Positions 33,596-34,398 of a stretch of 64,000 nucleotides of DNA are shown piece by piece. The position numbers were made by a program, and so were the translations under genes. Every line of letters starts with the position of its first letter. Position 1 is the stretch's first letter. The notes beneath the pieces were generated by a model. That model saw only the letters and a list, made by a program, of their open reading frames with translations, did not search any database and was not told the DNA's origin. Source of the DNA: an uncultured Pseudomonadales bacterium (lineage in GTDB: Bacteria > Patescibacteriota > Microgenomatia > UBA1400 > PJMF01); the NCBI GenBank assembly GCA_964511345.1, contig CAZEEV010000001.1:150621-214620 (forward strand), in the 5' to 3' direction.

Positions 33596-34398
33596 TTACA
33601 TATAGCTATAATACAATGATCTGTACGGATGATTTTTATTCAGCCACGGTTTATCAGATGTCAAGAAGTGCAATATGACCGGATTAATTACTTTTTTAAC
33701 TGACGATTCGTAGTGAGTTCCCATATCATTTCGCAATTCTAAATTCCATTTTCTTGAAATTAGCTTAACACCTTTATCTAATGATAAATTTATAACATCT
33801 TGATCAACATTTAATAATTTAATATTTGTGTTTTTTATCAATGATAAAAACGCATCGCTTACTTTATCATTTCTCATCTTTTTTAAATTCATGAGCATCA
33901 CTCCAGAATTAATATATTGAGACGAGGATATTTTTAATCTTAAAATATTTTTTTTAGAATTTAAGCTGTTAACAGCAGCTAAGTAAAAATTTGTTACATC
34001 AATTTTCCAAAGTTCTTGTATGTCTCCTAAAACTAAAGTGTCTGAGTCTAAATAAATAACTTTATCTAAAAATGGAAGTAAATTTGGTAAAACTAATCTA
34101 AAATAATTAGCTTCAGAAAAATGCGTACCATTAGGAATTGGCAACTTAGAAAAAAAATTTTATCTTTAATTTCTATAAAAATGAATTTTGATTTTTTTAT
34201 TTTATTTAATAAAAGAAACTTAATTTTATTAAATAAATTTATATTTTTACTTACAATAATAAAAGTAAAATTATTTTCTAAAGTGGAGTTAATTAAAATT
34301 GATCTTATTGTGGTCATACAATAAGGAACATAATTATTGTCTATTGTAAAGCAAACATAAATTTGTTTTTGATCATTTACATTTTTAATATTATTCAT
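33596..34398 (-). pseudogene. GT8 family (LPS alpha-1,3-galactosyl/glucosyltransferase-like) gene split by a frameshift at an A8/T8 homopolymer
   Basis: ORF 34093..34398 carries the GT8 N-terminus ('VCFTIDNNYVPYCMTTIRSILINS'). ORF 33596..34144 carries the DxD ('YLDSDTLVLGD') and the C-terminal 'HF...KPW' half. The frames overlap at the 8-nt A tract 34150-34157. Confidence 0.6.

What the first reader, a model, noticed from the sequence alone, without database searches (positions are those of the whole stretch)
33596..34398. GT8 glycosyltransferase split at an A8/T8 homopolymer, a possible phase-variable switch or pseudogene
The N-terminal (VCFTIDNNYVPYCMTTIRSIL) and C-terminal (YLDSDTLVLGD ... 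HF..KPW) halves of a GT8 LPS-type glycosyltransferase lie in two overlapping frames on the minus strand. The frames overlap exactly at an 8-nt homopolymeric tract (34150-34157). A one-nucleotide insertion in the tract would restore a single full-length ORF. GT8 LPS/LOS transferases are classic phase-variable genes in other bacteria through slipped-strand mispairing at homopolymers or repeats.
Basis: partly seen in the sequence, partly recalled or inferred. Interest (0 to 1): 0.55.

Follow-up and report, generated by a model that had tools for sequence, protein, structure and literature searches.

The report
Frameshifted accessory GT8 glycosyltransferase gene
A sugar-transferase gene in an uncultivated Patescibacteria (CPR) genome is broken by a one-base shortfall in a run of eight T's; it is most likely a young, ordinary pseudogene in a strain-specific surface-glycan island, not a demonstrated on/off switch.

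Summary
On the minus strand, a 101-aa ORF (34398-34093) and a 182-aa ORF (34144-33596) are the two halves of one family-8 glycosyltransferase. They join at a T8 tract (34150-34157). Adding one T gives a 267-aa protein that matches Pfam GT8 end to end (150 bits), keeps every invariant catalytic residue, and models as a confident LgtC-like GT-A fold (pLDDT 92.9). A second assembly (Logan, SRR8925774) also has T8.

The host is a Woesebacteria-like CPR bacterium, so "LPS-type" is unsupported. The gene lies in a ~10.7-kb low-GC island that the nearest relatives lack. It has no homologue above 45% identity, and no in-frame allele was found anywhere searched. T8 tracts are commonplace here (30 in 64 kb, the others in frame). 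T8 is below the ≥10 cut-off PhasomeIt applied to poly-A/T in Campylobacter. Homologues have no tract at this site.

The best reading is a recent T9→T8 slippage deletion that inactivated a dispensable accessory gene, possibly with a few percent of leaky rescue at the U8 run. Phase variation, assembly error and programmed frameshifting are not excluded; read pile-ups would settle this. Interest is low.

The parts
33596..34398 (-). Whole frameshifted GT8 glycosyltransferase gene. It encodes 267 aa if the tract is read as T9. GC content is 23%.
   Evidence: The repaired protein matches PF01501 at profile 2-251/253 (150 bits). The AlphaFold model has pLDDT 92.9. Foldseek gives LgtC TM 0.80, plus WbbM, GlyE and 3tzt. 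GC content.
34093..34398 (-). N-terminal fragment ORF (101 aa). Residues 1-84 are GT8 (beta1-alpha1-beta2-alpha2-beta3), followed by a 17-residue out-of-frame tail and a TAG stop.
   Evidence: profile 2-78. Secondary structure.
34150..34157 (-). T8 homopolymer (A8 on the plus strand), the site of the frame break. In the upstream frame it reads AU U_UUU_UUU C. This is an X_XXY_YYZ heptamer on which a -1 shift would yield exactly the repaired protein.
   Evidence: The junction is localised.
33596..34159 (-). C-terminal open frame (ORF called from the TTG at 34144, 182 aa). It carries the DXD motif (D118/D120), NSGV, DQD and the H244...KPW motifs.
   Evidence: profile 79-251. Invariant columns.
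33948..33955 (-). Second 8-nt homopolymer in the same gene (A8 in the sense strand, within NSKKNI). It is in frame and serves as an internal control.
24481..35149 (.). Low-GC island of about 10.7 kb (29.6% GC against 34-37% in the flanks), full of glycan-synthesis genes. It is absent from the closest relatives and holds the GT8 gene at its right edge.
33513..34493 (.). The GT8 'module'. DNA homology to other contigs stops at 33512 (fcl side, L016, 91% identity) and resumes at 34494 (116-aa ORF side, L017, 94.6% identity). The stretch between them is unique to this genome.

Best explanation
This is a genuine family-8 (retaining, GT-A fold) glycosyltransferase gene. It was acquired as part of a strain-specific, low-GC surface-glycan island in a Woesebacteria-like CPR bacterium. 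It has been knocked out of frame by a one-base contraction of a T9 run to T8 through replication slippage.

As the DNA stands, translation yields an 84-residue GT8 N-terminus with a 17-residue nonsense tail. That product lacks the DXD and His metal and nucleotide-sugar ligands, so the gene is a young pseudogene, or equivalently is in an 'OFF' state.

Because the break sits on a U8 run that forms a U_UUU_UUU heptamer, a few percent of transcripts or ribosomes may slip by chance and produce the full 267-aa enzyme.

Shown here: the break, its position, the intactness of everything else, the island context, and the absence of any in-frame allele. Inferred: the T9 ancestor, the direction of the mutation, the loss of function, and the leakiness.
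For: - The break lies exactly at the tract, and the repaired product is a complete GT8.
- There is no second lesion. All residues invariant across 66 homologues are kept: S33, Y116, D118, D120, G166, Q200, N204, H244 and W252. This points to a recent event.
- The same T8 appears in an independent Logan assembly, with 0 gaps over 7,937 bp.
- The other 8-nt A/T runs inside ORFs are all in frame, and no other split gene was seen in 64 kb. The assembly therefore does not suffer from general homopolymer errors.
- Only 2 of 32 runs that reach 8 nt extend to 9 (P~0.001). The T9 needed for an in-frame gene is thus a length class this genome barely tolerates, which fits T9 collapsing to T8.
- The gene is dispensable accessory DNA. 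The nearest relatives (RuvB 97-98% identical) lack the whole 24.4-35.15 kb segment, and the window holds more than 25 other glycosyltransferases.
- All homologues are single ORFs with no long tract at this site. The closest has GAT TTT TCT AAA, a T5 run.
- In E. coli reporters, T7/T8 runs rescued -1 frameshifted gfp to about 5-10% of the in-frame control (PMC6260861). This supports possible leakiness.
Against: - The absence of any other disabling mutation in a 23%-GC gene is equally what a reversible switch, or a sequencing error, would give.
- The two assemblies may derive from the same reads, so they do not exclude a systematic read error or a minority T9 subpopulation.
- Homologue alignments have one residue fewer at the junction. 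The ancestor could therefore have been T6 rather than T9, which would need a less likely +2 event.
- No orthologue exists with which to test relaxed selection.
Confidence: 0.55

Rival explanations
1. Contingency locus. The T tract is a slipped-strand switch that reversibly toggles the transferase ON (T9) and OFF (T8), diversifying the cell-surface glycan within the population. The assembled consensus happens to be the OFF phase.
For: - A tract inside the ORF toggles the frame.
- The gene is otherwise perfectly intact.
- It encodes a surface-glycan enzyme in a hypervariable glycan island.
- GT8 enzymes such as LgtC are classic phase-variable genes in Neisseria and Haemophilus (general knowledge, not tested here). 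LgtC is among the closest structures, with TM 0.80.
- If the organism lacks mismatch repair, even T8/T9 would be unstable. This could not be tested from the window.
Against: - T8 is below the poly-A/T >=10 cut-off PhasomeIt applied to Campylobacter (PMC6321876).
- Thirty equal-length tracts occur in 64 kb. They are ordinary KK or FF codon pairs, and their number is explained by AT-richness.
- Orthologous 8-nt tracts in relatives at about 83% DNA identity differ by substitutions and stay in frame.
- There is no tract at this site in any homologue.
- No T9 or T6 allele exists in 5.8 billion protein clusters, genome contigs or metagenome contigs.
- The Logan contig runs through the tract unbroken with T8.
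- The literature search found no report of SSR phase variation in CPR bacteria.
Confidence: 0.15
2. Sequencing or assembly artefact. The real genome has T9 and an intact gene, and one T was lost during consensus calling at the homopolymer.
For: - Homopolymers are the commonest site of indel errors.
- The gene has no other defect.
- The two assemblies may share the same reads.
Against: - The other A/T runs of 8-9 nt inside ORFs of the same window are in frame, and no other gene is split.
- An independent assembler reproduced T8 with no gaps over 7.9 kb.
Confidence: 0.12
3. Programmed recoding. T8 is the functional state, and the full-length enzyme is normally made by -1 ribosomal frameshifting on U_UUU_UUU or by RNA-polymerase slippage. 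The short N-terminal product would be a by-product or a regulator.
For: - The tract forms a canonical X_XXY_YYZ heptamer in the upstream frame, and a -1 shift gives exactly the repaired protein.
- Bacterial RNAP slips measurably on T7/T8, giving 5-10% rescue (PMC6260861), and efficiently on runs of 9 (PMC5009743).
Against: - There is no significant downstream structure (MFE z=-1.6, with 11 of 200 shuffles folding as well).
- There is no Shine-Dalgarno-like element upstream.
- No homologue shares the two-frame arrangement or the tract.
- An 84-residue GT8 stub has no obvious function.
Confidence: 0.06
4. Split enzyme. The 101-aa and 182-aa products are made separately and assemble into an active transferase.
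For: Both ORFs are called as genes, and there is a TTG at 34144.
Against: - There is no ribosome-binding-like sequence before the TTG.
- The cut falls inside the single GT-A domain, just after beta3.
- All 66 aligned homologues are single chains.
- The N fragment ends in 17 nonsense residues.
Confidence: 0.02

Closest known systems
LgtC (Neisseria/Haemophilus LOS alpha-1,4-galactosyltransferase; PDB 1g9r/1ga8/1ss9), CAZy GT8
   Same: Same family and fold: Foldseek E=2e-19 and TM 0.80, phmmer E=4e-13. It shares the DXD motif and the C-terminal His/KPW motif. In some species LgtC is switched by repeat-mediated frameshifts (general knowledge).
   Different: Only about 22% identity. The host here is a CPR bacterium, not an LOS-bearing proteobacterium. 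The tract here is T8 and not a poly-G or tetranucleotide array. No tract-length variation was observed.
GT8 protein of Anaerococcus prevotii (PDB 3tzt), and GlyE of Streptococcus pneumoniae (PDB 5gvv), a GT8 that glycosylates the serine-rich adhesin PsrP
   Same: 3tzt is the best sequence match among solved structures: E=4e-23, aligned over residues 16-267. Both come from bacteria without an outer membrane. They are therefore better functional analogies (cell-wall or protein glycosylation) than the LPS enzymes.
   Different: Identity is 22-25%. The acceptor and donor sugars of the window's enzyme are unknown. Those two genes are intact.
Simple-sequence-repeat contingency loci (for example Campylobacter, Neisseria and Haemophilus surface-glycan genes catalogued with PhasomeIt)
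   Same: An intragenic mononucleotide tract whose length sets the reading frame of a surface-glycan transferase.
   Different: The tract is shorter than the cut-off PhasomeIt applied to A/T runs in Campylobacter (>=10; PMC6321876). It is not enriched over background, is not conserved in homologues, and shows no observed polymorphism.
Homopolymer frameshift pseudogenes partly rescued by polymerase slippage (Buchnera/Blochmannia poly(A) genes; E. coli T7/T8 reporters)
   Same: A one-base frameshift inside an A/T run of an AT-rich, reduced genome, where RNAP or ribosome slippage can restore some full-length product (PMC5009743, PMC6260861).
   Different: The endosymbiont cases involve longer tracts (from memory, about 10 or more) and essential genes. 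Here the tract is 8 nt and the gene is accessory. Rescue is inferred, not shown.

Membership tests
Glycosyltransferase family 8 (Pfam PF01501; retaining GT-A) | Profile match above the curated gathering score, covering the whole domain | tested here: met
   The repaired protein scores 150.1 bits against a cut-off of 24.3, over profile 2-251/253 in one stretch.
Glycosyltransferase family 8 (Pfam PF01501; retaining GT-A) | DXD metal/nucleotide-sugar motif and the C-terminal His...KPW motif | tested here: met
   D118, D120, H244 and W252 are invariant across 66 homologues, K250 and P251 are nearly invariant (>=90%), and all are present in the repaired protein.
Glycosyltransferase family 8 (Pfam PF01501; retaining GT-A) | GT-A fold similar to solved GT8 enzymes | tested here: met
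   AlphaFold pLDDT 92.9 and pTM 0.91. Foldseek hits are WbbM, LgtC (TM 0.80), GlyE and 3tzt, all at probability 1.00.
Glycosyltransferase family 8 (Pfam PF01501; retaining GT-A) | Encoded as one uninterrupted ORF (functional member) | tested here: not met
   The frame breaks at T8, 34150-34157, in both assemblies.
LPS/LOS core GT8 transferases (WaaI/WaaJ/RfaJ/LgtC type) | Reaches the equivalog score of an LPS transferase model | tested here: not met
   NF011718 (LPS 3-alpha-galactosyltransferase) scores 81.3 bits against a cut-off of 461.
LPS/LOS core GT8 transferases (WaaI/WaaJ/RfaJ/LgtC type) | The host makes LPS/LOS (has an outer membrane and a lipid A-core pathway) | not testable with these tools
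   Only 64 kb of the genome is available, and no lipid A or Kdo genes were seen in it. RuvB places the host in Patescibacteria/Microgenomates. That group is generally held to lack LPS (general knowledge).
SSR-mediated phase-variable (contingency) gene | A repeat tract within the ORF (or promoter) whose length change switches expression | tested here: met
   T8 is out of frame; T9 or T6 is in frame.
SSR-mediated phase-variable (contingency) gene | Tract length in the range shown to give high-frequency switching | tested here: not met
   The tract is 8 nt. PhasomeIt used >=10 for poly-A/T and >=7 for poly-G/C, cut-offs set for Campylobacter and configurable per organism (PMC6321876).
SSR-mediated phase-variable (contingency) gene | Tract-length polymorphism between strains, samples or reads | tested here: inconclusive
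   Two assemblies both show T8. No in-frame allele was found in the protein, genome or metagenome collections.
SSR-mediated phase-variable (contingency) gene | A tract that stands out from the genomic background or is conserved at the site in homologues | tested here: not met
   There are 30 runs of exactly 8 nt in 64 kb, and the island density is explained by its lower GC. Homologues have at most T5 at the site.
Programmed -1 ribosomal frameshift / transcriptional-slippage recoding site | Slippery X_XXY_YYZ heptamer (or a long A/T run) in the correct frame | tested here: met
   AU U_UUU_UUU C in the upstream frame. A -1 shift gives ...IFFSKLPIP..., identical to the repaired protein.
Programmed -1 ribosomal frameshift / transcriptional-slippage recoding site | A stimulatory element (downstream hairpin or pseudoknot, or upstream SD-like sequence) | tested here: not met
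   The 100 nt downstream fold at -14.2 kcal/mol, z=-1.61, with 11 of 200 shuffles folding as well. No SD-like sequence lies upstream.
Programmed -1 ribosomal frameshift / transcriptional-slippage recoding site | The two-frame organisation is conserved in related genes | tested here: not met
   All homologues examined are single ORFs across the site.

The most novel reading that the evidence does not exclude
The T8/T9 tract is a working slipped-strand switch that turns a surface-glycan transferase on and off within a population of a Woesebacteria-like CPR bacterium. The literature search made here found no description of SSR-mediated phase variation of cell-surface glycosylation in the Candidate Phyla Radiation, whose episymbiotic lifestyle depends on surface contact with hosts and exposure to phages. 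The near-absence of A/T runs of 9 nt or more in this genome would then mark T9 as an exceptional, deliberately unstable tract.
Probability: 0.12. Interest if true: 0.55.

Novelty: new member of a known kind. Interest (0 to 1): 0.2.

Why it matters
As it stands, this matters little. It is one more accessory glycosyltransferase disabled by homopolymer slippage, a routine event in AT-rich reduced genomes.

It is useful as an annotation note: the two ORFs should be merged and flagged as a frameshifted GT8. It also illustrates how fast the surface-glycan islands of CPR bacteria turn over. The island is absent from relatives whose RuvB is 97-98% identical, and pieces of it recur at 91-98% DNA identity in other contigs.

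Only if read-level data showed T8/T9 heterogeneity would it become an entry point to phase variation in CPR bacteria.

Tried and rejected
- **Orthologue check.** This was impossible. The best homologue is 45% identical (P0002), and genome contigs and metagenome contigs give at most 40-45%. The source genome is not among the species representatives.
- **Scan for tract-length variants.** An exact-flank scan of metagenome contigs (GAAATTAAAGATAAAA-N6-11-CTAAGTTGCCAATTCC) returned 0 hits.
- **Second frameshift at the A9 run 49602-49610.** Rejected. The two ORFs there are different genes, Wzy_C and PMT_2.
- **Other candidate splits** (59711-60085 / 59953-61353, and RecO). There is no complementary family evidence.
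- **Frameshift-stimulating RNA structure downstream of the tract.** Not significant.
- **Terminator or promoter scan around the gene.** No better than shuffles.
- **10-bp inverted repeat after the stop codon.** It folds, but z is only -1.6.
- **Flanking repeats that might mark an insertion of the GT8 module.** None convincing.
- **5'-end bias of 8-nt tracts.** Eight of 30 lie in the first 10% of their ORFs (P=0.008). I attribute this to Lys-rich N-termini rather than to a 'phasome'.
- **NYN paralogy as the source of the three SNPs between assemblies.** Rejected; the paralogues are only 33% identical.
- **Literature.** A search for the SRA run returned nothing. Searches for phase variation in CPR bacteria found only a Gracilibacteria hypervariable-repeat gene.

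Full report
**Observation**

The minus strand between 34398 and 33596 carries two overlapping ORFs, 34398..34093 (101 aa) and 34144..33596 (182 aa). The sequence at the junction is GAT AAA ATT TTT TTT CTA AGT TGC, with eight T's at 34157-34150, which is A8 on the plus strand. The downstream frame is open from 34159, just after a TAA at 34162-34160. The two open frames therefore overlap over 34159-34096, with the tract at the 5' edge of the overlap.

Adding one T gives a 267-aa ORF. Removing two T's would also restore the frame. Pfam GT8 (PF01501) matches the N fragment at profile positions 2-78 and the C fragment at 79-251. It matches the repaired protein in a single stretch, 2-251 of 253, at 150 bits and E=1e-43. 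In the closest homologue the residues F-S-K-x-x-I-P straddle the junction. The frame change must therefore lie within about 12 nt, eight of which are the tract. With 32 A/T runs of 8 nt or more in 64 kb, the chance of such a coincidence is about 1%.

**What the gene is**

The repaired protein keeps every column that is invariant across 66 homologues: S33, Y116, D118 and D120 (the DXD motif), G166, Q200, N204, H244 and W252. K250 and P251 of the KPW motif, conserved in at least 90% of them, are kept too. It aligns end to end with the solved GT8 protein 3tzt (E=4e-23) and over residues 15-220 with LgtC.

With a 66-sequence alignment, AlphaFold2 gives a confident model (mean pLDDT 92.9, pTM 0.91). 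The junction, residues 83-85, lies in a short helix just after the third beta-strand. Foldseek places the model with WbbM, LgtC (TM 0.80), GlyE and 3tzt.

It is therefore a bona fide retaining GT-A/GT8 transferase gene with a single lesion. The N fragment alone lacks the DXD and His ligands and ends in 17 nonsense residues, so as encoded it cannot be catalytic.

It is not demonstrably an LPS enzyme. The NCBIfam LPS 3-alpha-galactosyltransferase equivalog scores 81 bits against a cut-off of 461.

**Host and context**

RuvB (44414-45424) is 88% identical to a Candidatus Woesebacteria MAG protein, and more distant named hits are Pacebacteria or the Patescibacteria group. Unnamed relatives reach 91-98%. 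The host is therefore a CPR/Microgenomates bacterium, a group generally held to lack LPS (general knowledge).

The whole window is packed with glycosylation genes. There are more than 25 GT2, GT4 and GT-C transferases, sugar-nucleotide enzymes, flippases and an ABC-2 exporter. These are interleaved with ArgRS, RuvABC, RecO and a class II aaRS. The GT8 gene heads a minus-strand run: GT8, GDP-fucose synthase (484 bits, just under the 500-bit NF047922 equivalog cut-off), a 732-aa two-domain transferase, and a GT2.

**The island**

Contigs from the two closest relatives are L019 (DRR381268, RuvB 98%) and L020 (ERZ16299681, RuvB 97%). They align with the window at about 83% DNA identity from 35.15 kb rightwards. 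They lack 24.4-35.15 kb.

- In L019 the ABC-transporter ATPase gene is followed directly by a small ORF and the flippase.
- L020 has a RelB/YafQ pair, a GT2 and an acyltransferase in that position.

The missing segment is low in GC: 29.6% against 34-37% in the flanks, with the GT8 gene at 23%.

Parts of the island recur elsewhere at much higher identity than the core genome:

- fcl is 91% identical in L016, where homology ends at 33512 and the neighbours differ.
- The 116-aa ORF is 94.6% identical in L017, where homology starts at 34494.
- The 732-aa GT and GT2 junction is 93-98% identical in L018 (GCA_964627555.1).

The stretch 33513-34493, which is the GT8 gene with its flanks, is unique. 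The best protein homologue among 5.8 billion clusters is 45% identical. The best in species-representative genomes is 40%, and the best in JGI metagenomes is 45%.

**Is the break real?**

A Logan assembly of run SRR8925774 (L001, 7,937 bp) matches window 30040-37976 with no gaps and three substitutions, all in the NYN gene at 37688-37729. It therefore also has T8 and the same two ORFs. The other A/T runs of 8-9 nt that lie inside ORFs are all in frame. I found no other split gene. The A9 at 49602-49610 lies between a Wzy_C gene and a PMT_2 gene.

The assembly thus shows no general homopolymer problem. An error at this one site remains possible, because the two assemblies may share reads.

**Is the tract special?**

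No. Run-length counts are 522, 255, 88, 30, 2 and 0 for lengths 5 to 10. The 8-nt runs are simply Lys-Lys or Phe-Phe codon pairs with flanking A or T. Their higher density in the island (11 in 10.7 kb against 21 in 53 kb) follows from its lower GC.

What is striking is the ceiling. Only 2 of 32 runs reaching 8 nt extend to 9, although the extension probability at 6-7 nt is about 0.3 (P about 0.001). An in-frame GT8 would need T9, a length this genome almost never keeps. That makes a T9 to T8 collapse a natural origin for the lesion.

In relatives, orthologous 8-nt tracts differ by substitutions and stay in frame. None of the homologues has a long tract at the site. The closest reads GAT TTT TCT AAA.

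Homologues have one residue fewer here. A T6 ancestor therefore cannot be excluded, although it would need a +2 event.

**Phase variation**

The tract does toggle the frame, the gene is otherwise intact, and it is a surface-glycan gene in a variable island. All of these fit a contingency locus.

Against this:

- T8 is below the poly-A/T >=10 cut-off that PhasomeIt applied to Campylobacter (PMC6321876).
- The tract neither stands out from the background nor is conserved.
- No length polymorphism or in-frame allele was found.

Literature searches found no SSR phase variation described for CPR bacteria. They returned only a hypervariable in-frame repeat gene in a Gracilibacterium.

**Recoding**

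In the upstream frame the tract reads AU U_UUU_UUU C. This is a canonical -1 slippery heptamer, and a -1 shift gives exactly the repaired protein. However, the downstream 100 nt fold no better than shuffles (z=-1.6), there is no SD-like stimulator, and no homologue shares the layout.

Non-programmed slippage is plausible. E. coli RNAP rescued T7/T8 -1 reporters to about 5-10% of the in-frame control (PMC6260861), and runs of 9 slip efficiently (PMC5009743). Some leaky full-length product may therefore be made.

**Verdict**

- Recent slippage knockout (T9 to T8) of a dispensable, horizontally acquired GT8 gene, possibly leaky: confidence 0.55.
- True phase-variable switch: 0.15.
- Assembly error: 0.12.
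- Programmed recoding: 0.06.
- Split enzyme: 0.02.

Read pile-ups at 34150-34157, benchmarked against the in-frame control tracts, would decide among the first three. The phenomenon is of a known kind, and interest is low (0.2).

Noticed in passing
window 1-64000 (all A/T homopolymers): There is a sharp ceiling on A/T run length. Counts for lengths 5 to 10 are 522, 255, 88, 30, 2 and 0. Only 2 of 32 runs that reach 8 nt extend to 9, although the extension probability at 6-7 nt is about 0.3 (P~0.001). Both 9-nt runs (49602-49610 and 61393-61401) lie within the first 15 codons of their ORFs. This is consistent with selection against runs of 9 nt or more, which is about the RNA-DNA hybrid length and the RNAP slippage threshold.
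   Followed up: partly
window 24481-35149: A low-GC (29.6%) glycan-gene island of about 10.7 kb is absent from the closest relatives (L019, L020; RuvB 97-98% identical, DNA about 83%). Fragments of it recur at 91-98% DNA identity in unrelated contigs (L016, L017, L018). This suggests a mosaic of horizontally exchanged glycosylation cassettes between the ABC-2 exporter and the flippase gene.
   Followed up: partly
window 36471-37848: A second small insertion relative to L019 holds a 147-aa ORF with no family match and a NYN-domain gene, both on the minus strand. The only three differences between the window and the Logan assembly L001 (37688, 37715, 37729) cluster within 42 nt of this NYN gene. 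A 33%-identical NYN paralogue lies at 22234-22830, next to the ABC-2 exporter.
   Followed up: partly
window 33532-33586 (minus strand): A perfect 10-bp inverted repeat, TCACAAGCGA ... TCGCTTGTGA, with a 35-nt T-rich loop lies about 10 nt after the GT8 stop codon, inside the part of the intergenic region that is unique to this genome. Its fold is no better than shuffles (z=-1.6), and it is not a canonical terminator.
   Followed up: partly
window 26489-29378: An ArnE/F-like small EamA protein (115 aa), a GT2 polyprenyl-phosphate-sugar-synthase-like gene (239 aa) and a 605-aa GT-C (PMT_2/GT87) sit in a row. This looks like an ArnC/ArnEF/ArnT-style lipid-linked sugar transfer module inside the island.
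   Followed up: no
window 31481-31522 (in the 732-aa GT, 30344-32542, minus strand): A 21-nt tandem duplication encodes LTDLNKK twice in the coiled-coil linker between the GNT-I-like and GT1 domains. In the homologous contig L018 the two alignment blocks skip about 40-50 nt nearby (window 31277-31328), which hints at in-frame length variation in this linker.
   Followed up: no
window 1-64000: The window holds more than 25 glycosyltransferase genes (GT2, GT4/GT1 and at least five PMT_2-type GT-C), plus Wzy_C, two flippase-type genes, an ABC-2 exporter, GLF and several sugar-nucleotide epimerases/dehydratases. They are interleaved with housekeeping genes (ArgRS, RuvC/A/B, RecO, a class II aaRS) and do not form a discrete locus.
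   Followed up: no
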